A stretch of DNA of 38,179 nt from a virus (lineage: Duplodnaviria > Heunggongvirae > Uroviricota > Caudoviricetes). Positions within the stretch are counted from its first letter, which is position 1. Each line of letters begins with the position of its first letter. The notes below the pieces were generated by a model. It was not told the DNA's origin, did not search any database, and saw nothing but the letters and a program-made list of their open reading frames with translations. Position numbers and translations under genes: made by a program. Location of the stretch: the IMG/VR virus record IMGVR_UViG_2585427736_000016; one strand, written 5' to 3'. Below, one piece after another: positions 7,369 through 36,779 of the stretch.

Positions 7369-8085
7369 TCAAACCAGCCTTAGTTTTGTCTCAATTGCAA
7401 CGCCTATAATCTTGCAGTTTCCATTGATTGGCACGAGAGGCCATGCAGGGTTAAGTCCCTTGAGGTATTTATTTCCGCCGTCGATTATCAGCTTCTTGAA
7501 TGTTGCTTCGTTAGAGTCAGAAAGTTTTGCTATGACCAAGCTGCCGTTGATCGCCTCCCTTCCGGTATCGAAAAGAACGAATGTTCCCTCTGGAATGCTT
7601 AACCCAACCGGTGCCGTCATTGAATCACCTTCCACTTTAAGCCAAAACGCATTACCTTGAATATGCGCGTCAGACTCAAGCCAAACATCTATGTCTTTAA
7701 TGGTGTATGGTTCGCATGCTTCACACCACGAGCCAGCCTGGATACTGCTTAACACCGGATACCTCTTTCCTGCTCTGTATTCCCCTGCATACCTTACGTT
7801 GGCATCGCTCTTAAGGCTTTCTGCCTGTTCTGCAACCTTGGCAGCAATTGACTGGCTAAAATCAGCAATTGAGACTTGCAACAATCGTGCAAAACCAGAT
7901 GCAACCTCAACGTTTAGCGCGTTTCTGCCATTAAGATAATGTCCTACCGCTCCTTGGGTGATACCCAGTTCATCAGCGATTGAGTATTGGGTTATTCCCA
8001 ATTCTTTCTTTTTTGACTCATACAAAGCCTTAAGCCGCTTAGCGTCTTCGAGCTGTTCTGTCGTCAGTGATTTTTTATTTTCCAT
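7369..8085 (-). CDS. cI: CI/C2-type prophage repressor (HTH plus LexA-like S24 autopeptidase domain), 238 aa
   Basis: C-terminal half (...WLKVEGDSMTAPVGLSIPEGTFVLFD...ATFKKLIIDGGNKYLKGLNPAWPLVPINGNCKIIGVAIE) closely resembles the P22 C2 cleavage/dimerisation domain as recalled; N-terminal HTH (ITQYSIADELGITQGAVGHY); ATG lacks an SD, consistent with leaderless PRM mRNA. Confidence 0.9.
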   Translation of the reverse strand: MENKKSLTTEQLEDAKRLKALYESKKKELGITQYSIADELGITQGAVGHYLNGRNALNVEVASGFARLLQVSIADFSQSIAAKVAEQAESLKSDANVRYAGEYRAGKRYPVLSSIQAGSWCEACEPYTIKDIDVWLESDAHIQGNAFWLKVEGDSMTAPVGLSIPEGTFVLFDTGREAINGSLVIAKLSDSNEATFKKLIIDGGNKYLKGLNPAWPLVPINGNCKIIGVAIETKLRLV

Positions 8086-8969: not shown

Positions 8970-9777
8970 GTTAGCTGATTACAGGCCTCAACTTGAGGTC
9001 GTGGAGCATCGCGTGGCAGATACCGAAGATGGTTTCATGCGCGTTGCTAACGAGATTACCGACAGTCTGCTGATGGCTGATTTAACAGTCCGGCAGTTGA
9101 AGGTGATGCTCGCTATCATGCGCAAGACATACGGATTCAATAAGCCGATGGATCGACTCACAAACACGCAGATAGCAGCCATGACAGGTATTCATCACAC
9201 TCATGTTTGCGCTGCCAAGCGCCAGCTTATTGAGCGTAAATTCCTCATTGCTGATGGCGTGAAAATCGGAGTGAACAAGGTGGTTTCTCAGTGGATTAGC
9301 CAGGACAGCTTAACATTAGCTAAAACAGCTAACAAAACATTAGCCAAGTCGGCTAACGGGTATAAGCCAAGTCAGCTAAACACAAAAGACAATATACAAA
9401 AGACAATAAATACAAATACCCCCTTACCCCCTAACGGGGGAGGCGATGGGCAGGTTAAACCTGAACGTCGCAAGGCAGAACGAATCGACTATGAATCCTT
9501 CCTGAACGCCTACAACACCGAAGTCGGTGACAGACTGCCACACGCTGTTGCGGTCAACGAGAAACGCAAACGCCGCCTGAAGAAAATCATCCCGCAACTG
9601 AAAACGCCAAACGTGGACGGTTTCAGAGCGTATGTCAGGGCGTTTGTACATCAGGCCAAGCCGTTTTACTTCGGAGACAACGACACTGGCTGGACGGCAG
9701 ATTTTGATTACCTGCTGAGGGAAGATTCGTTAACGGGAGTACGGGAAGGGAAGTTTGCAGACAGGGGGATTGCATGA
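8956..9777 (+). CDS. O: replication initiation protein (lambda O-like), 273 aa
   Basis: N-terminal lambda-O-type domain (...[56 protein letters not shown]...); contains internal iterons and an AT-rich tract; AGGAG SD. Confidence 0.8.
9303..9420 (+). repeat. replication origin inside the O gene: 3-4 dyad iterons plus AT-rich tract
   Basis: Tandem about 24-bp units each with a short dyad (TAGCTaaaacAGCTA, TAGCCaagtcGGCTA, AAGCCaagtcAGCTA) at about 9310-9384, then AT-rich cacaaaagacaatatacaaaagacaataaatacaaatac; encodes the [20 protein letters not shown] linker. Confidence 0.6.
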
Positions 9778-11150
9778 GACAGGATATCGAAGCGAGCGTT
9801 ATCGGTGGCCTGCTGATTGGTGGATTAACTCCAACCGCCAGCGACGTTCTGGCAACGCTGGAGCCGGAAGCGTTTTCAATTCCGCTCTACCGGAAAGCCT
9901 TCGAGGTTATCCGCAAGCAGGCGAGAAACAGAAACCTAATCGATGCGCTGATGGTTGCCGAGGCGTGCGGAGAGGAGCATTTCACGTCAATCCTGATGAC
10001 CAGCAAAAACTGCCCGAGTGCCGCAAACCTGAAGGGATATGCCGGAATGGTCGCGGATAACTATCACCGCCGTCTGGTACTGGAAATCATGGATGAAATG
10101 CGTGAACCAATTCAGAGCGGAACCATCGACGCATCGAGTCAGGCGATGGATGAACTTGTAAAGCGTCTTTCAGCCATCAGAAAGCCCCGTGACGAGGTTA
10201 AACCTGTACGGTTAGGGGAAATCATTACTGACTACACTGACACGCTTGACAGGCGTCTGAGGAACGGAGAAGAGTCAGATACCCTGAAGACCGGAATCGA
10301 AGAACTTGACGCCATCACCGGAGGGATGAACGCGGAAGACCTGGTGATTATCGCCGCTCGTCCTGGTATGGGGAAAACCGAACTGGCGCTGAAGATTGCC
10401 GAAGGCGTTGCAAGCCGCGTTATCCCTGGTTCTGACGTTCGGCGCGGAGTGTTGATTTTCTCGATGGAAATGAGCGCATTGCAGATTGCAGAGCGAAGCA
10501 TCGCCAACGCCGGGAGGATGTCGGTTAGCGTGCTGCGAAATCCTGCATCGATGGATGACGAAGGATGGGCGCGTGTTGCTAACGGCATGAGTCAGCTTGC
10601 AGATTTGGATGTATGGGTAGTCGATGCCTCGCGGTTATCGGTCGAAGAAATACGCTCAATCGCAGAACGGCACAAACAGGAAAATCCAAACCTGTCACTC
10701 ATCATGGCGGATTATCTTGGCCTGATTGAGAAGCCGAAAGCAGATCGCAACGACCTCGCAATTGCTCACATCTCCGGAAGCCTGAAGGCGATGGCGAAAG
10801 ACCTGAAAACGCCTGTTATCTCCCTGAGTCAGCTTTCGCGCGATGTTGAGAAGCGACCAAACAAACGCCCGACAAACGCAGATTTGCGTGATTCAGGAAG
10901 CATTGAACAGGACGCAGACTCAATCATCATGCTCTATCGGGAAGCTGTATATGACGAGAACAGTAGCGCCGCGCCATTTGCTGAAATCATTGTGACGAAA
11001 AACCGTTTTGGCTCGCTTGGTACGGTTTACCAGCGGTTCTGCAACGGACACTTTGTTGCATGTGACCAGGATGAAGCCAGACAGATTTGCACAGCATCAA
11101 ATGCACCTGCTGCGCGTGGCAGACGATATGCACAAGGGGCTGACGTATGA
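9774..11150 (+). CDS. DnaB-family replicative helicase, 458 aa
   Basis: Walker A ([13 protein letters not shown]), DnaB motifs ([46 protein letters not shown]); ATGA overlap with O. Confidence 0.9.
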
Positions 11151-11818: not shown

Positions 11819-12221
11819 CGCCATAGACGCAATACTCTCACTTCCCATCGACGACAAGTCACCTCACGAAGTCCACATTAAAGAACCAAAGCGGAGCAAT
11901 CCTCAAAACCGCCTTATGTGGGCGTTATTGCAGGACGTATCGCGTCAGGTGCTTTGGCATGGAGAGAGACTTGCGCCGGAGGACTGGAAAGACCTGTTCA
12001 CTGCCCTGTGGCTTAAGACCAAAAAACTGGAGCAACGAAGTGCGCCTGGTATCGACGGTGGCGTTGTTATGCTTGGCGTGCGTACCAGCAAAATGCGAAA
12101 GGCCAGCATGACTGAGCTTATCGAAATCATGTTCTGGTTCGGCTCAGAGCGCAACGTGCGGTGGAGTGATGACTCCCGGCGAGAGTATGAATGGTCACAA
12201 CGAAAAGGGAAGGCTGCATGA
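11775..12221 (+). CDS. ninB: NinB/Orf-family recombination mediator, 148 aa
   Basis: ...PKRSNPQNRLMWALLQDVSRQVLWHGERLAPEDWKDLFTAL...[25 protein letters not shown] parallels lambda NinB (...DQNRKLWACLGDVSRQVEWHGRWL...GVKWSDEARLALEWKARWGDRAA) as recalled. Confidence 0.8.
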   Translation: MKQIYMLRNEAIRNNAIDAILSLPIDDKSPHEVHIKEPKRSNPQNRLMWALLQDVSRQVLWHGERLAPEDWKDLFTALWLKTKKLEQRSAPGIDGGVVMLGVRTSKMRKASMTELIEIMFWFGSERNVRWSDDSRREYEWSQRKGKAA

Positions 12222-12745
12222 CTATCAAATCAAATACGCCAGCACACGACAAGGACTGCTGGCAAACGCCGCTTTGGCTTTTTGATGCGCTGGATATTGA
12301 GTTTGGATTCTGGCTGGATTCAGCTGCGAGCGACAAAAACGCTCTGTGCGCTCACTGGCTAACTGAGGCCGACGACGCGCTAAATTCTGAGTGGATAAGC
12401 CACGGTGCAATCTGGAATAACCCACCGTACAGCAATATCAGGCCGTGGGTGGAAAAAGCCGCTGAGCAGTGCATACAACAGCGACAGACGGTAGTTATGC
12501 TTGTGCCAGAGGATATGTCAGTCGGATGGTTCAGCAAGGCTCTGGAGAGTGTCGACGAAGTTCGCATTATCACTGATGGACGGATTAATTTTATCGAACC
12601 ATCGACAGGGCTGGAGAAGAAGGGAAACAGCAAAGGCTCCATGCTGCTGATTTGGCGACCGTTCATCAGTCCTCGACGGATGTTTACTACCGTATCCAAA
12701 GCGGCATTGATGGCGATCGGGCAGGGCGTCAGGAGGGCGGCATGA
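12218..12745 (+). CDS. phage N6-adenine DNA methyltransferase (Dam-like), 175 aa
   Basis: NPPY catalytic motif ([18 protein letters not shown]), typical of phage N6A methyltransferases; ATGA overlap with ninB; AAGGGAAGG SD. Confidence 0.75.
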
Positions 12746-13322: not shown

Positions 13323-13491
13323 CCCATCCCAATCCCTTCAATACCAGAAAGAAAGCGTCGAGCGGGCTTTAACGTGCGCTAACTGCGGTCAGAAGCTGCA
13401 TGTGCTGGAAGTTCATGTATGTGAAGCGTGCTGCGCAGAACTGATGAGCGATCCGAATAGCTCAATGTACGAGGAAGAAGACGATGAATGA
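13315..13491 (+). CDS. ninF: NinF protein, 58 aa
   Basis: [58 protein letters not shown] matches lambda NinF as recalled. Confidence 0.7.
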   Translation: MLSPSQSLQYQKESVERALTCANCGQKLHVLEVHVCEACCAELMSDPNSSMYEEEDDE

Positions 13492-14206
13492 GTTAATAAA
13501 TGGCAATGCCATCAAAATGACAAGCATTGAAATCGCTGAGTTGGTGGGTAAGCGTCATGACAATGTGAAACGTACCATCGAAACGCTGGCTAAAAATGGT
13601 GTTATCCGGCTTCCTCAAATTGAGGTTTCCGAAAGAATCAATAACTTAGGGTTCAATGTTCAGTACGAGCATTACGTCTTCGAAGGCGAACAAGGTAAGC
13701 GAGATAGTATTGTTGTTGTTGCCCAGTTGTCGCCAGAGTTCACCGCTCGCCTTGTTGACCGCTGGCGAGATCTTGAAGAAGCTGCGGTTAATATCCCCAA
13801 AACGCTACCGGAAGCGTTGCGCCTTGCTGCTGATCTTGCTGAGCAGAAAATGCAACTGGAAAACCAGCTTGCAATTGCCGCACCTAAAGTTGAGTTTGCC
13901 GATCGCGTTGGCGAGGCCAGCGGAATTTTGATTGGAAACTTTGCAAAGGTTGTCGGTATTGGTCCAAACAAACTGTTTGCGTGGATGCGCGATCACAAAA
14001 TCCTTATTGCTTCAGGTTCCCGGCGCAATGTGCCAATGCAGGAATATATGGATCGCGGCTATTTCACAGTGAAAGAAACAGCGGTCAACACAAATCACGG
14101 AATACAGATATCGTTCACCACAAAAATCACCGGGCGTGGTCAACAGTGGCTGACCAGAAAGCTGCTCGATAACGGAATGCTGAAAGTAACAGGGGAGGCT
14201 GCTTAA
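13484..14206 (+). CDS. antirepressor-like regulator (Rha-type N-terminal domain, KilA-C-type C-terminal domain), 240 aa
   Basis: N-terminus MNELINGNAIKMTSIEIAELVGKRHDNVKRTIETLAKNG is the Rha signature; C-terminal part resembles the KilAC antirepressor domain. Confidence 0.7.
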   Translation: MNELINGNAIKMTSIEIAELVGKRHDNVKRTIETLAKNGVIRLPQIEVSERINNLGFNVQYEHYVFEGEQGKRDSIVVVAQLSPEFTARLVDRWRDLEEAAVNIPKTLPEALRLAADLAEQKMQLENQLAIAAPKVEFADRVGEASGILIGNFAKVVGIGPNKLFAWMRDHKILIASGSRRNVPMQEYMDRGYFTVKETAVNTNHGIQISFTTKITGRGQQWLTRKLLDNGMLKVTGEAA

Positions 14207-14855: not shown

Positions 14856-15040
14856 ACGCCACAATTCAAACGATACCAGAGCTTCTTATCCAGACACGAG
14901 GCAATCAGACCGAAGTGGCAAGGATGCTTTCCTGCGCAAGAGGAACAGTGCTCAAGTACAACCGAGACAGCAAAGGCGAGCGTCACGTAATAGTTAACGG
15001 CGTCCTGATGGTCAAACAGGGCAAGAGGGGAAGGCCATGA
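14852..15040 (+). CDS. ninH: NinH protein, 62 aa
   Basis: ...TIPELLIQTRGNQTEVARMLSCARGTVLKYNRD... resembles lambda NinH (...TIPDMLVEAYGNQTEVARRLKCSRGTVRKY...) as recalled. Confidence 0.7.
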   Translation: MNATIQTIPELLIQTRGNQTEVARMLSCARGTVLKYNRDSKGERHVIVNGVLMVKQGKRGRP

Positions 15041-15660
15041 GACTCGAAAGCGTAGCTAAATTTCATTCGCCAAAAAGCCCGATGATGAGCGACTCACCAC
15101 GGGCCACGGCTTCTGACTCTCTTTCCGGTACTGATGTGATGGCTGCTATGGGGATGGCGCAATCACAAGCCGGATTCGGCATGGCTGCATTCTGTGGTAA
15201 GCACGAACTCAGCCAGAACGACAAACAAAAGGCTATCAACTATCTGATGCAATTTGCACACAAGGTATCGGGGAAATACCGTGGTGTGGCAAAGCTCGAA
15301 GGAAATACTAAGGCAAAGGTACTGCAAGTGCTCGCAACATTCGCTTATGCGGATTATTGCCGTAGTGCCGCGACGCCGGGCGCAAGATGCAGAGATTGCC
15401 ACGGTACAGGTCGTGCGGTCGATATTGCCAAAACAGAGCTGTTGGGTAGAGTTGTTGAGAAAGAATGCGGAAGATGCAAAGGTGTCGGCTATTCAAGAAT
15501 GCCAGCAAGCGCCGCATATCGCGCTGTAACGATGCTAATCCCAAACCTTACCCAACCAACCTGGTCACGCACTGTTAAGCCGCTGTATGACGCTCTGGTG
15601 GTGCAATGCCACAAGGAAGAGTCAATTGCAGACAATATTTTGAATGCAGTCACACGTTAG
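15037..15660 (+). CDS. Q: lambda-type late antiterminator Q, 207 aa
   Basis: Translation matches lambda Q as recalled essentially along its whole length (MRLESVAKFHSPKSPMMSDSPRATASDS...CRDCHGTGRAVDIAKTEL...), including the zinc-finger region; followed by a PR'-type promoter. Confidence 0.85.
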   Translation: MRLESVAKFHSPKSPMMSDSPRATASDSLSGTDVMAAMGMAQSQAGFGMAAFCGKHELSQNDKQKAINYLMQFAHKVSGKYRGVAKLEGNTKAKVLQVLATFAYADYCRSAATPGARCRDCHGTGRAVDIAKTELLGRVVEKECGRCKGVGYSRMPASAAYRAVTMLIPNLTQPTWSRTVKPLYDALVVQCHKEESIADNILNAVTR

Positions 15661-15740: not shown

Positions 15741-16423
15741 AATGGCAGATTTATATCCGTTCACATTCTTTCAGTTTTTACCCACCTCATCTTTAAGTTC
15801 TAAGCGCACTGACATGCGCATCATAAACTCGAGAGCACATAGGAATAGAGCCTGAGAAATATCGCTTTTGGCGACTTCTCTCGTGGTGATATTTCTATGT
15901 CAGCAGGCTCTAATATCTATGTGGTTCGCCTATGTTAAAACGTGAAGATGCATTGAGACTTTTTAATTACAATCCAGATACTGGAATTCTTACATGGAAG
16001 AATCCACCTCGGTCTTCTAGATTTATTTATGGCGCTGTTGTTGGCTATAAAACAAATGGATATCTGCAGGTAAAACTTTATGGAATGCGGCTATATGTCC
16101 ATAGAATTGCATGGCTGATGGTTTACAATGATTGGCCAACCGATGTGATTGACCATATTAATGGTGATAGGTCTGATAACCGGATAGCCAATCTTCGTGT
16201 TGTTACTAACACTCAAAACTCATGGAACAGCAAGATGAGGAAAAACAATTCATCTGGTGTGAAGGGGGTGACTTTTAATTCTGCTGCAAACAAGTGGGTT
16301 GGAAGAATTAGGGTCAATGGTAAAAGGATTCATGTAGGGTGTTTTGACGATATCGAGGAGGCGAGAAAGGCAATGGAAAATGCCAGGATAAAATATCATG
16401 GTGAATTCTCCAGTATGGGATAG
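15741..16423 (+). mobile_element. about 0.68-kb AT-rich insertion in the PR' leader carrying a freestanding HNH homing-endonuclease gene
   Basis: Relative to recalled lambda, where PR' runs directly into the 6S leader (...TTGACTCAACGATGGGTTAATTCGCTCG...), the window has TTGACTCAAG, about 680 bp of lower-GC DNA, then GATGGGTTAATTCGCTCG. Confidence 0.5.
15932..16423 (+). CDS. HNH homing endonuclease with C-terminal AP2-type DNA-binding domain, 163 aa
   Basis: HNH motif region ...VIDHINGDRSDNRIANLRVVTNTQNSWN...; C-terminal GVKGVTFNSAANKWVGRIRVNGKRIHVGCFDDIEEARKAMENARIKYHGEF is an AP2-like domain; no obvious SD; stop codon lies at the right insertion junction. Confidence 0.8.
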   Translation: MLKREDALRLFNYNPDTGILTWKNPPRSSRFIYGAVVGYKTNGYLQVKLYGMRLYVHRIAWLMVYNDWPTDVIDHINGDRSDNRIANLRVVTNTQNSWNSKMRKNNSSGVKGVTFNSAANKWVGRIRVNGKRIHVGCFDDIEEARKAMENARIKYHGEFSSMG

Positions 16424-17012: not shown

Positions 17013-17216
17013 ATGTACCGTATGGACAAAATCAGAGAATGGTTCAGTTACAGCTTCGGAGGACTGACTGCGATGGGTGGCATTCTCTCCCTGAATGACT
17101 GGGCTGTCATCATTGGTATTCTTTGTACTGTCGGCACATTTGGCATCAACTGGTACTACAAGCGCAAAGAGCGCGAGGACAGATTGAATGGCAATGTCAC
17201 CGGCACTACGAAATAG
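17013..17216 (+). CDS. class II holin, dual-start (probable pinholin / antiholin pair), 67 aa
   Basis: Two in-frame starts, MYRMDK (ATG 17013 and ATG 17022); two TM helices; SD AAGGGG lies in hairpin CCCCT-caatga-AGGGG (16991-17006); followed by a SAR endolysin. Confidence 0.75.
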
Positions 17217-17691
17217 CGTAATAGCGGCGATAAGTGGCGGGGCTATTGCTATAGCATCTGTGTTAATCACTGGCCCGAGTGGTAACGATGGTCTGGAAGG
17301 TGTCAGCTACATACCATATAAAGATATCGTTGGTGTATGGACTGTATGTCACGGACACACCGGAAAAGACATCATGCTCGGTAAAACGTATACCGAAGCA
17401 GAATGCAAAGCCCTCCTGAATAAAGACCTTTCCACGGTCGCCAGACAAATTAACCCGTACATCAAAGTCGATATACCGGAAACAACGCGCGGCGCTCTTT
17501 ATTCGTTCGTCTATAACGTGGGCGCAGGCAATTTCAGAACATCGACGCTTCTTCGCAAAATCAACCAGGGCGATATCAAGGGCGCATGTGACCAGCTACG
17601 TCGCTGGACATACGCTGGCGGTAAGCAATGGAAAGGGCTGATGACTCGCCGTGAGATTGAGCGTGAAGTCTGTTTGTGGGGGCAACAATGA
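17188..17691 (+). CDS. SAR endolysin (T4-lysozyme-type muramidase with N-terminal signal-anchor-release domain), 167 aa
   Basis: Gly/Ala-rich weakly hydrophobic N-terminal segment ([19 protein letters not shown]) then a lysozyme core; resembles the phage 21 endolysin as recalled. Confidence 0.85.
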
Positions 17692-18125
17692 GCAGAGTAA
17701 CCGCGATTATCTCCGCTCTGGTTATCTGCATCATCGTCTGCCTGTCATGGGCTGTTAATCATTACCGTGATAACGCCATCGCCTACAAAGAACAGCGAGA
17801 TAAAGCCACATCCACAATCGCTGATATGCAGAAGCGTCAACGTGACGTAGCAGAACTCGACGCCAGATATACAAAGGAGCTTGCTGATGCTAACGCGACT
17901 ATCGAAAGTCTCCGTGCTGATGTTTCTGCTGGTCGTAAGCGCCTGCAAGTCGCCGCCACCTGTGCAAAGTCAACGACCGGAGCCAGCAGCATGGGCGATG
18001 GAGAAAGCCCAGGACTTACAGCAGATGCTGAACTCAATTATTACCGTCTCCGAAGTGGAATCGACAGGATAACCGCGCAGGTTAACTACCTGCAGGAATA
18101 CATCAGGACGCAATGCCTTCGATGA
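17688..18125 (+). CDS. Rz: Rz i-spanin, 145 aa
   Basis: [31 protein letters not shown]... matches the lambda Rz N-terminus as recalled; ATGA overlap with the endolysin. Confidence 0.85.
17887..18072 (+). CDS. Rz1: Rz1 o-spanin lipoprotein embedded in the +1 frame of Rz, 61 aa
   Basis: Signal peptide with lipobox LVVSAC then proline-rich segment ([16 protein letters not shown]), entirely inside Rz. Confidence 0.7.
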
Positions 18126-18300
18126 TAGCGATAATTTTACTCATCATCCTTCACATCTGGCTCTGTAGACAGGGTGGTGATCACTTCTGGAGTGAATCCA
18201 GATTAAACATCTCATTGCTGATGCTTGATATTGAGCATCTGGCGCGCGGTAAGGGGCTGCGTTGAGATAAGAGCCAGTCATCACAAACACCAGGATTTAG

Positions 18301-18322
18301 CCTCGCATTCGCGGGGTTTTTT
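18301..18322 (+). terminator. candidate rho-independent terminator after the lysis cassette
   Basis: CCUCGC-auuc-GCGGGG (one G-U pair) then TTTTTTATT. Confidence 0.5.
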
Positions 18323-18346
18323 ATTCCCAACTCCATAGGTAATTTT

Positions 18347-18826
18347 ATGACCCAGCATATTGGCGTAAAACTGATTAACGCCTTTCCGATGACGAGACAG
18401 GCATATAACGATTTTCGTGGCTGGCAGCTTCCTGCCGGAGAAAACGGCGAGGACGAAGGCTATCTGGTTGAATATCTGGATGGCGGAAAACCTAACACCG
18501 ATCGCTTTGATGGCTACGTTAGCTGGAGTCCAAAAGAAGTATTCGAAAAGGCTTATCGTCCGGTATCAGGACTAAGTTTCGGCCTTGCCATGGAAGCGTT
18601 AAAACAGGGCAAAAGTTTGCAGCGGGCAGGATGGAATGGGAAAGACCAGTTTGTTTATCTCGTGAAAGGGGAAAAATTAGCGTCTGCGTTGGGTTATGGT
18701 TTTGGCGAATATGTTGGCGAGCCAACTTTCAATGACACGCTTGTATTGAAAAACTCACAGAACCGCCTTGCTACATGGGTTCCATCCATTGGTGACATGA
18801 TGGCTGAAGACTGGCAAATCATTTAA
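18347..18826 (+). CDS. two-domain accessory protein, 159 aa; C-terminal half possibly DUF2829/Tad2-like
   Basis: C-terminal ...AMEALKQGKSLQRAGWNGKDQFVYL...WVPSIGDMMAEDWQII fits my recollection of the DUF2829 signature (A-L-K-x-G-K...R-x-G-W-N-G); N-terminal 70 aa unassigned. Confidence 0.55.
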   Translation: MTQHIGVKLINAFPMTRQAYNDFRGWQLPAGENGEDEGYLVEYLDGGKPNTDRFDGYVSWSPKEVFEKAYRPVSGLSFGLAMEALKQGKSLQRAGWNGKDQFVYLVKGEKLASALGYGFGEYVGEPTFNDTLVLKNSQNRLATWVPSIGDMMAEDWQII

Positions 18827-18836
18827 CCATGTAGGC

Positions 18837-18871
18837 ATTACAAAGCCCATCTACGGGTGGGCTTGATAATG
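18837..18871 (+). repeat. stem-loop repeat unit 1 (ATTACAAAGCC...GGGCTTGATAATG)
   Basis: Begins 11 nt after the stop of the 18347 gene; hairpin AAGCCCA-tctacggg-TGGGCTT then GATAATG; near-copy after the next gene. Confidence 0.5.
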
Positions 18872-19062
18872 AAACCGGAGTTAATTTCTGGTCACTAATT
18901 AACGGCAGTACAGCGAAACAACCCAAGCCAGTAAGTGGGGAAATAACACTGGCAGCCACTGAAAGATGAACCTCCTGCCTTATGGCAAAAAAAAGATTCT
19001 TTGTGGTGGCGGACTGATGGAAAGACATCCTAATCAAGCAACCACTCCACAGGGTCATAATT

Positions 19063-19443
19063 ATGAACGACCAGCAAATCGAAAAAGAAATCGTTGAGAA
19101 AGGCAAAACCGCTCCGAGAATCACTCCGCAGCACATCGAAGACGTGATTAAAAGCGAGCATTACTTTGCTGCTTATGATGGACGTAATGGTGCCATTTCC
19201 AGCAACGAATATTGTGGCAGGGAAAAACCAGAAGAAGGCGATCGTGATTTATCACCATTGAAGTTGCTCACTTTCTGCGTACTGGTGCTGAAGAATGGCT
19301 TCACCGTCACCGGAGAGAGTGCCTGTGCAAGCCCGGAAAACTTTGATGCAGAAATTGGTCGGAAGATTGCCCGGCAAAATGCTGTAAACAAAATCTGGAT
19401 GCTCGAAGGTTACTTGCTGAAGCAGAAGCTAAGCGAACAGTAG
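19063..19443 (+). CDS. Gp49-like / Sf6 gp66-like conserved phage protein, 126 aa
   Basis: Position just upstream of terS and sequence (...HYFAAYDGRNGA...LLTFCVLVLKNGFTVTGESACASPENFDAEIGRKIARQNAVNKIW) fit the Gp49-family protein of P22-like phages as recalled. Confidence 0.55.
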   Translation: MNDQQIEKEIVEKGKTAPRITPQHIEDVIKSEHYFAAYDGRNGAISSNEYCGREKPEEGDRDLSPLKLLTFCVLVLKNGFTVTGESACASPENFDAEIGRKIARQNAVNKIWMLEGYLLKQKLSEQ

Positions 19444-19445
19444 TT

Positions 19446-19485
19446 ATTACAAAAGCCATTCCCTACTGAGTGGCTTTGATAATGG
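19446..19485 (+). repeat. stem-loop repeat unit 2 (ATTACAAAAGCC...TGGCTTTGATAATGG)
   Basis: Begins 3 nt after the stop of the 19063 gene; hairpin AAAGCCA-ttccctactgag-TGGCTTT then GATAATGG; a further hairpin GGGATA-N10-TATCCC at 19501-19522. Confidence 0.5.
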
Positions 19486-19546
19486 CTTATACCCTACACG
19501 GGATAACTTAACTGATATCCCTTTTAACGGATAAACGGAGCCAACA

Positions 19547-19789
19547 ATGGCAGAGATTATTCCCATGACTGAAGAACAGAAATTCCAGTTAGAGATTTAC
19601 AAACTGGTCATGAACCAGAACGCAGCCGCAGAGGAAGCATTTCAATTCATTGGCACTGACGAGCTGAAGCTTGAGCTATTCAAAATTCACTTCCAGTCAG
19701 GTGGCGCTAATTCAGATATCACGACCCGCACAATCGAAGCGGTACGTAAATCGAAGGAAGCGTTAGACCTGTTTACTACCGGAGCATAA
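19547..19789 (+). CDS. hypothetical small protein, 80 aa
   Basis: ORF with AACGGAG upstream; helical, acidic. Confidence 0.5.
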   Translation: MAEIIPMTEEQKFQLEIYKLVMNQNAAAEEAFQFIGTDELKLELFKIHFQSGGANSDITTRTIEAVRKSKEALDLFTTGA

Positions 19790-19791
19790 AC

Positions 19792-19863
19792 ATGGCAACT
19801 CAAGGTTTCGACAACCCATCCAAATTCCGCGATGAATGGGATAAGCAAGCAGAAGGGAAATAA
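19792..19863 (+). CDS. possible 23-aa micro-ORF upstream of terS
   Basis: Hand-translated MATQGFDNPSKFRDEWDKQAEGK; GGAGCA SD; too short to assess. Confidence 0.25.
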   Translation: MATQGFDNPSKFRDEWDKQAEGK

Positions 19864-19868
19864 TCAAT

Positions 19869-20294
19869 ATGGCGACTGAGAAAAAGAAAGGTGGTCGCCC
19901 CTCTGATTATATGCCGGAGGTGGCTAATGACATTTGCGCATTGCTTTCCTCCGGCGAGAGTCTGCGCAAAGTTTGCGAACGCCCAGGAATGCCGAGCAAA
20001 ACATCAGTTTTTCGCTGGCTGGCTGAACATCAGGAGTTTCGTGACCAGTACGCGAAGGCAACAGAGACTCGGGCCGACTCTATTTTCGAAGAGATATTCG
20101 AAATTGCTGACGACGTAATCCCTGATGCCGCCGAGGTGGCAAAGGCAAGACTTCGCGTTGATACCCGCAAATGGGCGCTGGCCCGAATGAATCCCCGTAA
20201 GTATGGCGACAAGGTAACTAATGAGCTTGTCGGCAAAGACGGCGGCGCAATCCAGATTGAAACATCACCGATGAGCACTCTATTCGGAAAATGA
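19869..20294 (+). CDS. terminase small subunit (Sf6 gp1-type), 141 aa
   Basis: MATEKKKGGRPSDYMPEVANDICALLSSGESLRKVCERPGMP...RLRVDTRKWALARMNPRKYGDKVTNELVGKDGGAIQ matches the Sf6-type TerS as recalled. Confidence 0.85.
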   Translation: MATEKKKGGRPSDYMPEVANDICALLSSGESLRKVCERPGMPSKTSVFRWLAEHQEFRDQYAKATETRADSIFEEIFEIADDVIPDAAEVAKARLRVDTRKWALARMNPRKYGDKVTNELVGKDGGAIQIETSPMSTLFGK

Positions 20295-21703
20295 CCTCGA
20301 TTAATCCTATCTTTGAACCGTTCATTGAGGCGCATCGCTACAAAGTCGCCAAAGGCGGTCGAGGTAGCGGTAAGTCATGGGCAATTGCGAGGCTGCTTGT
20401 TGAAGCGGCGCGTCGGCAGCCAGTGCGTATTCTCTGCGCTCGTGAACTGCAAAACAGTATCAGCGATTCGGTAATCCGGTTGCTTGAAGACACCATCGAG
20501 CGTGAAGGGTATTCGGCTGAGTTTGAAATTCAGCGTTCAATGATCCGTCATCTCGGAACGAATGCTGAATTCATGTTCTACGGCATCAAAAACAACCCGA
20601 CGAAGATTAAATCGCTCGAAGGCATTGATATCTGCTGGGTGGAAGAAGCGGAAGCGGTAACGAAGGAATCATGGGACATCCTGATACCAACCATCCGTAA
20701 GCCGTTCTCTGAAATATGGGTGAGCTTTAACCCGAAGAACATACTCGACGATACCTATCAGCGATTCGTTGTAAATCCTCCCGATGATATTTGTCTGCTG
20801 ACGGTGAACTACACCGACAATCCGCATTTTCCTGAAGTTCTCCGTCTGGAGATGGAAGAGTGTAAACGCAGAAATCCGACACTGTATCGTCACATCTGGC
20901 TGGGTGAGCCAGTGAGCGCAAGTGATATGGCAATCATCAAACGTGAATGGCTTGAAGCTGCTACCGATGCGCACAAGAAACTCGGATGGAAAGCGAAAGG
21001 CGCGGTTGTTTCTGCTCATGACCCATCAGATACAGGGCCAGATGCTAAAGGTTATGCATCGCGTCACGGTTCGGTAGTTAAGCGCATTGCCGAAGGTCTG
21101 CTGATGGACATCAACGAGGGTGCTGACTGGGCTACTTCGCTGGTGATTGAAGACGGCGCTGACCACTACCTGTGGGATGGTGATGGTGTTGGTGCAGGTC
21201 TACGCAGACAGACAGCGGAAGCGTTCTCCGGTAAGAAAATCACCGCCACGATGTTCAAGGGCAGCGAATCGCCATTTGATGAAGATGCGCCTTATCAGGC
21301 CGGAGCATGGGCTGATGAAGTCGTACAGGGCGACAACGTTCGCACTATTGGTGATGTGTTCCGCAATAAGCGAGCGCAATTCTATTACGCGCTGGCTGAC
21401 AGGCTTTATCTGACATATCGGGCGGTTGTCCACGGTGAGTATGCAGACCCCGACGACATGCTGAGTTTCGACAAAGAAGCAATAGGCGAGAAGATGCTGG
21501 AGAAGCTGTTTGCAGAACTGACGCAGATTCAGCGCAAATTCAATAATAACGGGAAGCTGGAGCTTATGACTAAGGTCGAAATGAAGCAGAAGCTCGGTAT
21601 TCCATCTCCTAACCTGGCTGATGCGCTGATGATGTGTATGCATTGCCCGGCATTGGTCCGCGAAGAAACAGAAATATACGTTCCCTCATCCTCCGGTTGG
21701 TAA
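20291..21703 (+). CDS. terminase large subunit (ATPase plus RNaseH-like nuclease), 470 aa
   Basis: Walker A VAKGGRGSGKSWAIA, Walker B ICWVEEAE, C-terminal nuclease domain; ATGA overlap with terS. Confidence 0.95.
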   Translation: MTSINPIFEPFIEAHRYKVAKGGRGSGKSWAIARLLVEAARRQPVRILCARELQNSISDSVIRLLEDTIEREGYSAEFEIQRSMIRHLGTNAEFMFYGIKNNPTKIKSLEGIDICWVEEAEAVTKESWDILIPTIRKPFSEIWVSFNPKNILDDTYQRFVVNPPDDICLLTVNYTDNPHFPEVLRLEMEECKRRNPTLYRHIWLGEPVSASDMAIIKREWLEAATDAHKKLGWKAKGAVVSAHDPSDTGPDAKGYASRHGSVVKRIAEGLLMDINEGADWATSLVIEDGADHYLWDGDGVGAGLRRQTAEAFSGKKITATMFKGSESPFDEDAPYQAGAWADEVVQGDNVRTIGDVFRNKRAQFYYALADRLYLTYRAVVHGEYADPDDMLSFDKEAIGEKMLEKLFAELTQIQRKFNNNGKLELMTKVEMKQKLGIPSPNLADALMMCMHCPALVREETEIYVPSSSGW

Positions 21704-33880: not shown

Positions 33881-35698
33881 ATGTCAGATATCACCGCAAA
33901 TGTTGTGGTAAGCATGCCTTCTCAACTCTTCACTATGGCTCGTTCTTTTAAAGCCGTAGCTAATGGAAAGATTTATATCGGAAAAATTGACACTGATCCG
34001 GTAAATACTGAAAACCAGATCCAGGTTTATGTGGAGAACGAAGACGGCTCTCATGTTCCTGTATCGCAACCAATCATCATTAACGCTGCTGGTTACCCGG
34101 TATATAACGGACAGATCGCCAAGTTCGTAACTGTGCAAGGCCATTCTATGGCTGTTTATGATGCATATGGGGCGCAGCAGTTCTATTTTCCTAATGTGTT
34201 GAAGTACGACCCTGACCAGGGAATTATCAGGTTAAAAGAAGAAATTGCGAAAGATGATGGAGAGAAATATATCGGAATATGCCCTGACGTTTTTACGCTC
34301 AGAACAATTGAGCCATCATTCGTCGGGCAAAATATAACTGTTCGTGGATACTACTCTGACACACCCGGGCTTGGGGGAGGAACGTTTATAGCCTTTTCCA
34401 GTTCTGAAGCTGACGATGGTGTGAATATTTTTGTTACCCCCGGCGGTAAGCGATGGAAGAGAGCAGGAAGCCACATCGATATTCCGGTAGAGAACGGTGG
34501 CATGATGACATCATGTACGGCTGAGCAAAACAGTGAAGCCTTTGAACGCCTGACTGCATGCCTTCCATATGAAGGAGGTACGCTCAGACTCAATGGATTT
34601 TACGATATTAAGTATGGCGCTATCGTGCCTCCACGTGTCACGCTGGAGGGGTGCGGTATGGATTCCTGTGGATTAATTAAAACAGGTAACGATATTAAAA
34701 CCGTTCCGGATCGCATGTGGCAGGGTGTACCACACAGCTTCTCCAAAGACTTTATTGTTGCGGTAGATATGGATAGTGACACATCAGGTGATTTAAGCGG
34801 GACACAAACAAGAAGCACCAGAATAATTGGATTGAGTATTCTAAATACTGCGCCCAATCCTTGTGATTACGGGATATATAGCGCTATCAGTTACAATGTG
34901 CGCCTTCAGGACCTGTATATTCATAGGGTGAAAACCGGTTATCGCACTAGTGATAGTTGGTTGCAGACATGGGAAAACATTACTATTCAGGATGTCGTTA
35001 CTGGAGTTAAAATCGAAGCAGGTGGAACCACATATAATTTAAACAATATTTATGTGAAAACATGTTCAGGTGTTGCATATGATTTTAATAACATTACATA
35101 TAGCAGCCTGACTTGTTTGGCTGCTGACTTCGTTAATGGTACTGGCTATAAATTTAAAGATTGTACTGGAGTGAATCTATCTGGATGCGGAAGCGAAGAA
35201 AGCACTGGTAAAATATTTGATATAAATGGTAGTCGAATTAACGTAACTGCATTTAGAGGGGTTAATCATCATGATGGAGGAGTTGAAGCTGTATCTCTGG
35301 AATCGTGTTTCATCTCATTGGTTTCATCTCATTTTTCTAGTTACTCTGGAGGCTCATCTAGCAAATACATATATCTTAATGATGCAACTGCAAATTTTAA
35401 TGGTACGGTAATTCCCGACAACACCACTGATTCTATTAGATGGGGTAGTGGGCAGAGCAGGATCAACAAGGTTGATTCAGGCGGCACCTATAGTATAACC
35501 GGAAACTCATCATGGACTGCATTATGCAGACTTGAGTCAGGATATATAACGGTTCTATCAGTATCACCACCCACGGGAGATACAACTAATTTCCCGTTTG
35601 GCACCAAGTGGGAATTGCTTGGTCAGGTTTCTACCGGACCGTGGAAGTGGACATACGTATCAACTGGTGAATGGAAGGTATCCGCAACTACCACGTAA
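33881..35698 (+). CDS. tailspike protein (conserved P22-type head-binding domain plus distinct beta-helix receptor-binding domain), 605 aa
   Basis: First about 113 aa ([42 protein letters not shown]...NVLKYDPDQ) match the P22/Sf6 N-terminal domain as recalled; remainder is Gly/Asn/Thr/Ser-rich repeats in AT-rich DNA. Confidence 0.9.
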
Positions 35699-35726: not shown

Positions 35727-36779
35727 CTAATATCTGAATTTGTTTGATATCTTTTTCCCAATATCCATTGCTGGTTTTTCTATCGCAATAAATGATATCA
35801 GTCCAGCAATAAGTGATAGTGCTATGCATAAAACTTGATTTAAGTACAGGTTTATATCAGGTAATAACCTGAATGTTATCTGCTGTATTAAAAATCCCCA
35901 CAAGTAAACGCCATATGACACATCATGTTTTATTCTTACTGATTTTATTATTTTTGTTGTTGATAAATACACGAAAAATGTACATGCGCAAAAGTAAAAA
36001 AGCATATGCTTGAGTGTTGGGTCTGACACAAAATTATATAATATTGCAAATCCTATTGGTGCATGTGGTGAAATGTATATTTTGTCCTTGTTTATAGCAT
36101 ACAATGCGCCAAGAGCAAAGCATGGAGCCATTAAAAACACATCTGCATTATCGTTATTTATAAAAATTAATTTGTTCCATCCCAATACTGGAAGCGCTAT
36201 TATTGATAAGCATATGATGCTAGGTATTATTCTTCCTCTGCTCTGAGTTATCATGTAGCATGCTAGGAGCACGACATAAGATGCAACTTCATATGGTATT
36301 GTCCATAAGGAACCATTAACTGAGCTTTTATATATATTTTCCTCAAAAACACCAGGAAGAAAAAATTGCATATCCAAATATGAGCTTTTAAATAGATAGC
36401 TGTACGTCAGTGTATCTTTTAAATAAGATGTCATTGAGTGCGTTGTAAGTAATGGTCCAACAATGAATGTCGCGAATAATAAAACAAAAATGAATGCGGG
36501 GAATATTCTAAAAAATCTAGATGAAATAAAGTGTGGTATGTTGCGCGTTGTTAATAAACTATTAGTTACAAGCATTCCACTAATAAAGAAAAATATTTTT
36601 ACAGCAATGGAACCAGTATATGTAAATGTGAAAACAGACTGAACCGGCTCCTGGGCTCCATCAGAATTTGCAAGATAATATGAATGGGCAAATATTACAG
36701 AAATTGCACAAAAAATACGTATTAAGTCAAGGTTATTGTTATCCCTTTTTAGCGCATCTTTGACCAACATAAAAATCAC
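35727..36779 (-). CDS. membrane acyltransferase-3 family protein (O-antigen O-acetyltransferase-like serotype-conversion gene), 350 aa
   Basis: About 10 predicted TM helices; N-terminal ...DLIRIFCAISVIFAHS... with conserved His/Arg typical of the OafA/Oac family; strongly AT-rich; sits between tailspike and int as oac does in Sf6. Confidence 0.8.
   Translation of the reverse strand: MIFMLVKDALKRDNNNLDLIRIFCAISVIFAHSYYLANSDGAQEPVQSVFTFTYTGSIAVKIFFFISGMLVTNSLLTTRNIPHFISSRFFRIFPAFIFVLLFATFIVGPLLTTHSMTSYLKDTLTYSYLFKSSYLDMQFFLPGVFEENIYKSSVNGSLWTIPYEVASYVVLLACYMITQSRGRIIPSIICLSIIALPVLGWNKLIFINNDNADVFLMAPCFALGALYAINKDKIYISPHAPIGFAILYNFVSDPTLKHMLFYFCACTFFVYLSTTKIIKSVRIKHDVSYGVYLWGFLIQQITFRLLPDINLYLNQVLCIALSLIAGLISFIAIEKPAMDIGKKISNKFRY

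What the first reader, a model, noticed from the sequence alone, without database searches (positions are those of the whole stretch)
18347..19789. Accessory gene cluster between lysis genes and terminase, including a possible Tad2/DUF2829-like protein
Three small genes (159, 126 and 80 aa) sit between Rz and terS, each followed by conserved stem-loops. The 159-aa protein has a C-terminal region whose motif (ALKQGKSLQRAGWNGK...) fits my recollection of the DUF2829 family, to which the Thoeris anti-defence protein Tad2 belongs, fused to an unassigned 70-aa N-terminal domain. The second is Gp49-family and the third unassigned. A late-expressed slot beside the packaging genes is a plausible home for anti-defence or host-takeover functions.
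Basis: partly seen in the sequence, partly recalled or inferred. Interest (0 to 1): 0.6.

Follow-up and report, generated by a model that had tools for sequence, protein, structure and literature searches.

The report
Two-sponge anti-defence island in phage
Between the lysis and DNA-packaging genes of this P22-like phage sit two genes from known families of phage "sponge" proteins that soak up bacterial immune alarm molecules (Tad2 and Acb4); the first carries an extra, uncharacterised domain that is found almost only attached to such sponges.

Summary
The three ORFs exist exactly as described (159, 126 and 80 aa). Stem-loops follow the first two only.

Gene A (18347-18826) has a C-terminal Tad2/DUF2829 domain. 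It scores PF11195 E 2.9e-22 and E 3e-26 (about 58% identity by my count of the printed alignment) to crystallised SPO1 Tad2. The four main gcADPR contacts are conserved.

Gene B (19063-19443) belongs to PF13876, now known as the Acb4 anti-CBASS sponge family. It is the Sf6 gp66 orthologue and 45% identical to the phage N4 PF13876 protein.

Gene C is P22 Orf80 (DUF2560), a conserved backbone gene rather than an accessory one.

The slot between Rz and Orf80 is a mosaic cassette site. In 64 related contigs, 15 carry the Acb4-like gene and 4 carry gene A.

These are new members of known kinds, already annotated as DUF2829.

The less ordinary part is the 72-aa N-terminal domain. It has no Pfam model and no solved-fold match. 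It is more conserved than its partners. It also occurs alone or fused to five separate sponge families: Tad2, Acb4, Sequestin, RyR-Tad and Lockin. Its function is unknown.

The parts
18113..18265 (+). 50-aa ORF, homologue of Sf6 gene 65. It overlaps the end of Rz and is a common first cassette of the variable slot.
   Evidence: ORF list. Sf6 annotation and 98% DNA identity over 18000-18287. Present in many of the 64 related loci. No Pfam hit.
18299..18325 (+). Intrinsic-terminator-like hairpin (8-bp stem, 5 G-C pairs) followed by TTTTTTATT. It travels with gene A as one inserted cassette (18288-18835 relative to Sf6).
   Evidence: Terminator scan. RNA fold -14 kcal/mol, z -3.2. Insertion limits from the comparison with Sf6 and IME10.
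18347..18568 (+). Gene A, N-terminal domain (residues 1-74). Uncharacterised beta-beta-alpha-beta-beta-alpha module found alone or fused to phage sponge domains.
18575..18826 (+). Gene A, C-terminal Tad2-like (DUF2829) domain (residues 77-159) with a short SPO1-type beta2-beta3 insertion. Predicted sponge for TIR-derived ADPR signals. Coordinates include the stop codon.
   Evidence: PF11195 E 2.9e-22. SPO1 Tad2 8SME E 3.3e-26, ModTad2 E 2e-18. Foldseek matches Tad2 structures only. W96, N97, W144, S147 and D150 are at least 90% conserved in 27 fusion homologues.
18836..18871 (+). Hairpin 1: ATTACAAA, 9-bp stem, 4-nt loop, TTGATAATG. Lies 3' of gene A; in Sf6 the same element follows gene 65.
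   Evidence: z -3.4; covariation.
19063..19443 (+). Gene B: PF13876 (Acb4 family) protein, orthologue of Sf6 gene 66. Predicted cyclic-dinucleotide sponge.
   Evidence: PF13876 E 1e-34. SPO1 Acb4 9E4W E 0.007. 45% identity to the N4 PF13876 protein gp48. Sf6 gp66 is listed in Table S3 of the Acb4 paper.
19446..19483 (+). Hairpin 2, same family as hairpin 1 (10-bp stem, 6-nt loop). Lies 3' of gene B.
   Evidence: (z -4.8).
19547..19789 (+). Gene C: DUF2560, i.e. P22 Orf80 / Sf6 gene 67 / HK620 hkbM. A conserved backbone gene just upstream of terS, not a variable cassette. Function unknown.
   Evidence: PF10834 E 1.1e-43. 98.8% identity to P22 Orf80; found in 171 phage records. The 80 kept IMG/VR loci are 99-100% identical while the upstream content varies.

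Best explanation
The window is a temperate P22-like (Lederbergvirus-type) genome. The stretch between Rz and the conserved Orf80/terS genes is a cassette slot in the Q-dependent late operon. In this phage it holds two anti-signalling genes.

**Gene A.** Its C-terminal domain is a Tad2-family sponge. By homology it should assemble as a tetramer and sequester TIR-made ADP-ribose-derived alarm molecules, most likely 3'cADPR (1''-3' gcADPR). Binding the signal keeps the Thoeris effector switched off.

**Gene B.** It is an Acb4-family sponge, also expected to be a tetramer. It would sequester CBASS cyclic dinucleotides such as 3'3'-cGAMP. Like other Gram-negative members, it probably binds 3'3'-c-di-AMP too.

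**Expression (inferred).** Both genes would be transcribed with the lysis and head genes, by Q-modified RNA polymerase reading through the terminator at 18299-18325. That timing suits signals triggered by late proteins.

**The N-terminal domain of gene A.** This 72-aa module recurs on phage sponges. By homology with RyR-Tad gp68 it probably dimerises. Its own contribution is unknown.

**What is shown and what is inferred.** Family membership, fold, conservation of contact residues and cassette behaviour are shown. Oligomeric state, ligand identity, timing and the effect on defence systems are inferred.
For: **Gene A**
- PF11195 at 79.4 bits against a cut-off of 25.
- E 3e-26 and about 58% identity (my count from the printed alignment) over 85 residues to SPO1 Tad2.
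- The AF2 model matches only Tad2 structures.
- SPO1 contact residues W25, N26, W73 and D79, plus S76 (bioRxiv 10.1101/2023.05.01.538930), map to W96, N97, W144, D150 and S147. These are at least 90% conserved across 27 fusion homologues.

**Gene B**
- PF13876 at 119 bits.
- PF13876 is the Acb4 family. All eight tested homologues bound 3'3'-cGAMP, and those from phages of Gram-negative hosts also bound 3'3'-cAA.
- Sf6 gp66 is in that paper's family table and differs from gene B at two residues by my comparison of the two sequences.
- Gene B is 45% identical to the N4 PF13876 protein. N4 Acb4 binds c-di-AMP at 111 nM (bioRxiv 10.64898/2026.08.10.743972).

**Linkage of the two families**
- N4 encodes the same pair side by side: gp48 is PF13876 and gp49 is N-domain plus Tad2, 44% identical to gene A over its full length.
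- Tad2-Acb4 fusions are common, and one blocks both Thoeris and CBASS (bioRxiv 10.1101/2025.07.12.664507).

**Cassette behaviour**
- Sf6 lacks 18288-18835.
- In 64 loci with an identical gene C, the slot holds KilA-N/Rha-like genes most often, the Acb4-like gene in 15, and N-Tad2 in 4.

**Late-operon position**
- The Q antiterminator is at 15037-15660, followed by holin, endolysin and Rz upstream of the cluster.
- No promoter-like site lies on the + strand before gene A or gene B.
Against: - No binding or phage assay exists for these exact proteins.
- Secondary Tad2 contacts differ from SPO1: T65N, D67Q, H71A, T78G and I63L.
- Tad2 homologues vary widely in ligand. Known targets include 3'cADPR, His-ADPR, N7-cADPR, cyclic dinucleotides and cCMP/cUMP. 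The specific ligand is therefore a guess.
- Similarity of gene B to the only solved Acb4 is weak (E 0.007). Of the ten SPO1 ligand residues, only F48, F62 and I66 are kept; E49, V56, Y57, N63 and T70 differ, and K36 and K81 fall outside the aligned stretch.
- Tetramer formation could not be modelled with the tools available.
- Late expression is inferred from gene order, not measured.
Confidence: 0.8

Rival explanations
1. The N-terminal domain of gene A is only a structural add-on. It would be a dimerising or stabilising handle that ties sponge oligomers together or raises their avidity, with no target of its own.
For: In the RyR-Tad (CB1 gp68) crystal the homologous N-domain forms a domain-swapped dimer. 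On its own (residues 1-86) it showed no activity against type I Thoeris, while the C-terminal domain alone was sufficient (bioRxiv 10.64898/2026.06.04.730250). Homology to gp68 is supported by BLASTP E 2e-6 and hhalign probability 96.8%. The domain carries net charge -3, unlike the positively charged pockets described for known sponges.
Against: - It is often a stand-alone 73-86-aa protein. Examples are one at the N4 gp49 position in phage phiEaP8 and one between RNR and glutaredoxin genes.
- It is more conserved than its partners: mean pairwise identity 0.73 against 0.38-0.64.
- It sits at the N-terminus, the middle or the C-terminus of multi-sponge chains.
- It joins partners with different oligomeric states: dimers, tetramers and hexamers.
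Confidence: 0.35
2. Genes A and B are anti-CRISPR proteins, as they are labelled in the phage Huey record, in line with the original AcrIIA7 (DUF2829) report.
For: The Huey annotation calls both homologues 'anti-CRISPR protein'. HgmTad2 was first deposited as AcrIIA7, 'Inhibitor of Type II CRISPR-Cas system'.
Against: The Tad2 papers argue that DUF2829 proteins are anti-Thoeris sponges. [quoted passage not shown] From my own knowledge, E. coli hosts of P22-like phages carry type I, not type II, CRISPR systems. The domain is far closer to SPO1 Tad2 (E 3e-26) than to AcrIIA7 (E 2e-6).
Confidence: 0.03
3. The proteins are true sponge-family members, but they are used mainly to manipulate housekeeping second messengers such as c-di-AMP or c-di-GMP, or for some other phage function, rather than to evade immunity.
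For: Acb4 homologues from phages of Gram-negative hosts bind 3'3'-c-di-AMP. Some long-insertion Tad2 proteins bind c-di-GMP very tightly. The genes sit in a structural/lysis operon rather than among early genes.
Against: No tested Acb4 homologue bound c-di-GMP. Gene A has the short SPO1-type insertion, not the long dinucleotide-binding one. From my own knowledge, E. coli does not use c-di-AMP as a housekeeping signal. The same families are experimentally anti-Thoeris and anti-CBASS in several phages.
Confidence: 0.07

Closest known systems
Tad2 (Thoeris anti-defence 2; SPO1 gp34.65; Pfam PF11195/DUF2829)
   Same: Residues 75-159 of gene A align end to end with SPO1 Tad2, at about 58% identity by my count and E 3e-26. 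The predicted fold is the same. The W/N/W/D ligand contacts and helix alpha1 are conserved. The short beta2-beta3 insertion is of the SPO1 type.
   Different: Gene A carries a 74-aa N-terminal domain that SPO1, Mod, Hgm and Spt Tad2 lack. Five secondary or water-mediating contacts differ. It comes from a temperate enterobacterial podophage and sits in a late operon. Its ligand has not been tested.
Phage N4 gp49 (GenBank EF056009 numbering) and the adjacent gp48 (the PF13876 protein; presumably the 'N4 Acb4' of the PanDA preprint)
   Same: The two-gene content is the same. gp49 is N-domain plus Tad2, 44% identical to gene A over its full length. gp48 is PF13876, 45% identical to gene B.
   Different: The gene order is reversed. 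In N4 the pair lies in the N4-like anti-signalling hotspot next to the virion RNA polymerase gene, in a lytic Schitoviridae phage, not in a lysis-terS slot.
Acb4 (anti-CBASS 4; SPO1; PDB 9E4W; Pfam PF13876)
   Same: Gene B is a full-length, high-scoring PF13876 member. It has the conserved NGF..GES.C..P.NFD.EIG...A motif. Its Sf6 orthologue is in the published family list.
   Different: Only weak direct similarity to SPO1 Acb4 (E 0.007). Only F48, F62 and I66 of the ten SPO1 ligand residues are kept. Gene B has a longer N-terminal region with an insertion (126 aa against 96 aa).
RyR Tad (Pectobacterium phage CB1 gp68)
   Same: It shares the N-terminal domain with gene A (34% identity, E 2e-6; hhalign probability 96.8%). 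Its architecture is also N-domain plus a gcADPR sponge.
   Different: The sponge domain is a RyR Repeat12-like helical domain, unrelated to Tad2. The protein is a dimer.
Multi-sponge fusions (Tad2-Acb4, Acb4-Sequestin) of Tal et al. 2025 and the Ab09 gp59 study
   Same: The logic is the same: several signal-binding modules are combined in one locus or one chain. N-domain-containing chains such as Acb4-N-Sequestin and N-Sequestin-Tad2 exist.
   Different: Here Tad2 and Acb4 are separate genes divided by a hairpin and a 236-nt spacer. The extra fused module is the uncharacterised N-domain, not a known sponge.

Membership tests
Tad2 / PF11195 (DUF2829) | Profile match above Pfam's gathering score | tested here: met
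   79.4 bits against a cut-off of 25, E 2.9e-22, residues 77-159 covering profile positions 2-73 of 73.
Tad2 / PF11195 (DUF2829) | Sequence and fold similarity to an experimentally characterised Tad2 | tested here: met
   SPO1 Tad2 E 3.3e-26, ModTad2 E 2e-18. Foldseek probability 1.0 and TM 0.77-0.89 (normalised to the target) to 8WJE, 8SMF and 8SMG, with no other fold at E<0.4.
Tad2 / PF11195 (DUF2829) | gcADPR pocket residues (SPO1 W25, N26, W73, D79; also S76, T78, I63, T65, D67, H71) | tested here: inconclusive
   W96, N97, W144, D150 and S147 are conserved. I63L, T65N, D67Q, H71A and T78G differ. The core is kept, but the effect of the changes on specificity is unknown.
Tad2 / PF11195 (DUF2829) | Homotetramer with two inter-protomer pockets; binds the signal and inhibits Thoeris | not testable with these tools
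   Only monomer prediction is available, and there are no wet-lab data for this protein.
Acb4 / PF13876 | Profile match above Pfam's gathering score | tested here: met
   119.3 bits against a cut-off of 27, E 1e-34, residues 20-123 covering profile positions 1-82 of 82.
Acb4 / PF13876 | Similarity to characterised members | tested here: met
   45% identity (E 4e-29) to the N4 PF13876 protein gp48. N4 Acb4 binds c-di-AMP. SPO1 Acb4 E 0.007. The Sf6 orthologue is in Table S3 of the Acb4 paper.
Acb4 / PF13876 | SPO1 ligand-contact residues (K36, F48, E49, V56, Y57, F62, N63, I66, T70, K81) | tested here: inconclusive
   F80, F94 and I98 are kept. E49T, V56C, Y57A, N63D and T70I differ. K36 and K81 fall outside the aligned stretch. 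Divergent Gram-negative homologues nevertheless bound cGAMP.
Acb4 / PF13876 | Tetrameric pinwheel that binds four cyclic dinucleotides and inhibits CBASS | not testable with these tools
   No multimer or ligand modelling tool, and no assay.
Moron (self-contained promoter-gene-terminator insert) | Own promoter upstream and terminator downstream of the inserted gene | tested here: not met
   No promoter-like site on the + strand before gene A or gene B. The terminator-like hairpin lies upstream of gene A, and the downstream hairpins lack a T-run.
Anti-CRISPR AcrIIA7 | Inhibition of Cas9 | not tested
   Considered only because of the Huey annotation. The literature reassigns DUF2829 to Thoeris inhibition.
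Known sponge folds, tested for the N-domain (Tad1, Tad2, Acb2, Acb4, TadIV-1 and any other deposited sponge) | Fold or sequence match of residues 1-76 to a solved sponge | tested here: not met

The most novel reading that the evidence does not exclude
The 72-aa N-terminal domain of gene A (18347-18562) may be an autonomous anti-defence module. It could be a new ligand-binding sponge for an immune signal not yet assigned, or an inhibitor that binds a host immune protein. Phages would deploy it alone or string it together with Tad2, Acb4, Sequestin, RyR-Tad and Lockin domains.

The 'guilt by fusion' rule that uncovered Sequestin points to this domain just as strongly. A Pfam-based search for fusion partners cannot see it, because it has no Pfam model.
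Probability: 0.4. Interest if true: 0.75.

Novelty: new member of a known kind. Interest (0 to 1): 0.5.

Why it matters
P22, Sf6, HK620 and their relatives are classic model phages. This work shows that their variable lysis-to-terminase slot can carry a Tad2-type and an Acb4-type sponge as hairpin-bounded cassettes. That gives tractable E. coli and Shigella phages (Kapi1, HZ41, Huey, IME10, Sf6) for studying how temperate phages evade Thoeris and CBASS.

The wider point concerns the N-terminal domain. It is a very conserved, unannotated module found in about 1,500 protein clusters. Its recognisable partners are almost only immune-signal sponges from five unrelated families. If it has its own target, it would be another widespread anti-defence family, and a marker for finding further sponges among its still-unassigned fusion partners.

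Tried and rejected
**Searches that returned nothing useful**
- PADLOC and NCBIfam gave nothing for the three proteins.
- Rfam found no known RNA family in 17900-20000; the only hit was sX6 at E 0.37.
- No tRNA genes in the window.
- The afdb50 fold library was unavailable.
- The Cell 2025 paper describing Tad3-Tad8 is not held. Identity of the N-domain with one of those proteins is therefore excluded only indirectly: no PDB fold or sequence match, and the RyR-Tad authors call the domain a fold of unknown function.
- A motif search of the supplement to the 'Functional diversity of phage sponge proteins' preprint found no N-domain sequences.
- No held paper mentions both Tad2 and P22-like phages.
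- The ModTad2 preprint gave no residue-level rule for choosing between 3'cADPR and His-ADPR as ligand.

**Ideas dropped**
- Gene C as a third anti-defence gene. It is near-invariant backbone (P22 Orf80) while the slot upstream varies.
- Gene A as a moron with its own promoter.
- The 43-aa ORF at 18966-19097, which overlaps the start of gene B and which Huey annotates. I treated it as probably spurious and did not test it.
- My first assumption that N4 'gp49' was the Acb4 protein. BLASTP found no similarity to gene B. In that GenBank record gp49 is N-domain plus Tad2 and gp48 is the PF13876 protein.
Full report
**Observation.** ORF listing confirms three + strand genes at exactly the stated coordinates: 18347-18826 (159 aa, gene A), 19063-19443 (126 aa, gene B) and 19547-19789 (80 aa, gene C). 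Upstream are a holin (17013-17216), an endolysin (17188-17691) and Rz (17676-18125) with an embedded Rz1-like ORF. Downstream are an Sf6-type terS (19869-20294) and terL (20291-21703). The window as a whole is a temperate P22-like genome. It carries a cI-like repressor (7369-8085, minus strand), DnaB (9774-11150), a Q antiterminator (15037-15660), a P22-type tailspike head-binding domain (33881-35698) and an integrase (37022-38179, minus strand). The closest phage records for this region are Huey, IME10, HZ41, Sf6 and Kapi1 at 96-98% DNA identity.

The claim that each gene is followed by a stem-loop is only partly right. Strong hairpins follow gene A (18836-18871) and gene B (19446-19483); none of 200 shuffles folds as well (z -3.4 and -4.8). 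The sequence after gene C folds no better than chance (z +1.4). A canonical terminator-like hairpin with a T-run lies just upstream of gene A (18299-18325). A 50-aa Sf6 gene-65 homologue (18113-18265) precedes it.

**Gene A, C-terminal half.**
- Pfam PF11195, now named 'Tad2-like', matches residues 77-159 at E 2.9e-22.
- A search of PDB sequences finds SPO1 Tad2 (8SME/8WJE) at E 3e-26, with an ungapped 85-residue alignment at about 58% identity by my count.
- It also finds Myroides ModTad2 at E 2e-18, and more weakly SptTad2 and HgmTad2/AcrIIA7.
- An AlphaFold2 model built on 30 homologues (pLDDT 86.7) matches only Tad2 structures in the PDB. Foldseek probability is 1.0 and TM-score 0.77-0.89 relative to the target; nothing else scores below E 0.4.

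The SPO1 structure paper names W25, W73, N26 and D79 as the main gcADPR contacts. It names T78, I63 and T65 as adenine contacts, and D67, H71 and S76 as water-coordinating residues. In gene A these map to W96, W144, N97, D150 and S147, all conserved. The others are changed: G149, L134, N136, Q138 and A142. The conserved five are at least 90% invariant in 27 full-length homologues. The beta2-beta3 insertion is the short SPO1 type. It is not the long insertion through which HgmTad2 and SptTad2 bind cyclic dinucleotides.

Which ligand is bound stays open. Tad2 homologues have been shown to inhibit type I, II and IV Thoeris, CBASS and Pycsar in various combinations. Overall similarity favours a 3'cADPR binder like SPO1 Tad2.

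**Gene B.** PF13876 ('N4 Gp49/Sf6 gene 66') matches at E 1e-34. This family is now the Acb4 anti-CBASS sponge family. SPO1 Acb4 is a tetramer that binds four 3'3'-cGAMP molecules. All eight tested homologues bound cGAMP, and those from phages of Gram-negative hosts also bound 3'3'-c-di-AMP.

Sf6 gp66 is in that paper's family table and differs from gene B at two residues by my comparison. Gene B is 45% identical to the N4 PF13876 protein. N4 Acb4 binds c-di-AMP at 111 nM and triggers the PanDA guard system. Direct similarity to the solved SPO1 protein is weak (E 0.007), and only three of its ten ligand residues are kept. Family membership is therefore firm, but specificity is not.

**Gene C.** It matches DUF2560 at E 1e-43 and is 98.8% identical to P22 Orf80. 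It occurs in 171 phage records. The 80 IMG/VR loci that were kept are 99-100% identical in gene C, while the genes upstream of it vary. I therefore read it as conserved backbone next to terS, not as part of the accessory set. Its function is unknown.

**The slot is a cassette site.**
- Relative to Sf6, the window has an insertion of 18288-18835, comprising the terminator plus gene A. The hairpin that follows gene A here follows gene 65 in Sf6.
- In 64 IMG/VR loci with enough upstream sequence, the Rz-to-Orf80 interval most often holds KilA-N/Rha-like genes. The Acb4-like gene is present in 15 loci and N-Tad2 in 4, in all combinations with the gene-65-like ORF. This sample is not dereplicated.
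- The exact gene A allele is in 37 of 5426 complete E. coli genomes. All twelve listed records annotate it 'DUF2829 domain-containing protein'.

The two hairpins belong to a family with fixed flanks (ATTACAAA ... TTGATAATG) and a variable stem. It turns up after many unrelated genes in phage contigs. On 18 distinct 35-nt versions, 98.7% of cells pair, five pairs show changes on both sides, and no shuffle or slid register comes close. Two caveats apply. The flanks were fixed by my search pattern. I also left out one sequence that did not fold, which looked like a chance match, together with near-duplicate rows.

No promoter-like site precedes gene A or gene B on the + strand. Transcription is therefore most simply read-through from the Q-dependent late promoter. 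This is an inference from gene order and from the established layout of P22-like late operons.

**The N-terminal domain.**
- *Abundance.* The domain is common: 1566 cluster representatives at E<=1e-3 and 137 phage genomes.
- *Fusion partners.* Among the best 142 representatives, the Pfam partners are Tad2-like (50), PF21825 (38) and PF13876 (22), plus four singletons. PF21825 is the Sequestin sponge family. Multi-bead chains also occur, namely Acb4-N-Sequestin and N-Sequestin-Tad2.
- *Two further sponge families.* The domain is homologous to the N-terminal domain of RyR Tad (CB1 gp68): BLASTP E 2e-6, hhalign probability 96.8%. It is also homologous to the N-terminus of a Lockin homologue listed by Tal et al. 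(probability 97.3%).
- *Stand-alone forms.* It exists as a 73-86-aa protein. In phiEaP8 it sits at the position N4 uses for gp49. In one metagenomic contig it lies immediately upstream of a stand-alone RyR-domain gene. In another it lies between RNR and glutaredoxin genes.
- *Conservation.* Within the N-Tad2 fusions it is more conserved than the sponge half: mean pairwise identity 0.73, against 0.64, 0.38 and 0.52 for the three Tad2 segments.

The only published remarks I found are in the RyR Tad preprint. [quoted passage not shown] It reports a domain-swapped dimer in the crystal, with no anti-type-I-Thoeris activity on its own. The list of tested candidates in Tal et al. contains none of the domain's motifs.

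Two readings remain open. The domain may be a dimerising scaffold, or it may be an independent anti-defence module. I lean slightly towards the second because of the stand-alone genes and the strong conservation, but nothing here decides between them.

**Comparison with what is known, and verdict.** N4 carries the same pair side by side. gp48 is PF13876, and gp49 is N-domain plus Tad2, 44% identical to gene A. Clustering and fusion of these sponge families is already documented.

The locus is therefore a new instance of known families, in a genomic position that none of the held papers I found discusses. The part that could repay experiments is the N-terminal domain.

Noticed in passing
window 18836-18871 and 19446-19483; also loci L008-L127: A hairpin family with fixed flanks (ATTACAAA ... 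TTGATAATG) and a covarying 9-10-bp stem bounds the accessory cassettes. It recurs in more than 50 IMG/VR phage contigs after unrelated genes. It has no T-run and no Rfam match. It could be a transcript 3' stabiliser, a processing site or a recombination linker.
   Followed up: partly
window 18645-18800 (inside gene A): There is a mosaic joint inside the Tad2 domain. In phages Huey and IME10 this 156-nt stretch, which encodes the beta2-beta3 insertion and beta3, is replaced by an unrelated 177 nt, while both flanks stay 94-100% identical. This suggests allele swapping of the specificity-determining insertion.
   Followed up: partly
L005 (phage N4, EF056009) 2109-2962: In this GenBank record 'gp49' is the N-domain plus Tad2 protein, and gp48 is the PF13876 (Acb4-family) protein. 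The Pfam name 'N4 Gp49' therefore does not fit this numbering.
   Followed up: yes
L212 3001-3641: A stand-alone N-domain gene (86 aa) is immediately followed by a stand-alone RyR-domain gene (117 aa). This is a split version of the RyR-Tad fusion, located in a podophage-like structural region.
   Followed up: partly
window 15932-16423: An HNH plus AP2-domain ORF, resembling a homing endonuclease, sits between the Q antiterminator gene and the holin. A similar HNH-AP2 unit is inserted inside an N-Tad2 gene in protein P0308.
   Followed up: no
window 19547-19630 (first 28 codons of gene C): The first 28 residues of Orf80 are about 93% identical in HK97-like phages (HK97, HK106, mEpX2, mEp235), where the rest of the gene is absent. 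This looks like a mosaic boundary shared with an unrelated head-gene module (phrog_23132).
   Followed up: no
window 18872-19062: A 190-nt stretch with no convincing ORF lies between hairpin 1 and gene B, and most of it (from 18902) is 97% identical in Sf6. Only a 43-aa ORF (18966-19097) overlaps the start of gene B. Its role is unknown.
   Followed up: no
window 12191-12745, 13484-14206, 35727-36779 (minus strand): Three other accessory genes were seen: a Dam-type N6-adenine methyltransferase and a Rha/ANT antirepressor-like gene in the nin region, and an Acyl_transf_3 gene next to the tailspike, possibly for O-antigen modification.
   Followed up: no
proteins P0067, P0068, P0032, P0105 (N-domain fusions without a Pfam partner): Several N-domain proteins carry C-terminal domains of 45-60 aa with no Pfam family. 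By the same association logic, these are candidate new sponge or anti-defence domains.
   Followed up: no
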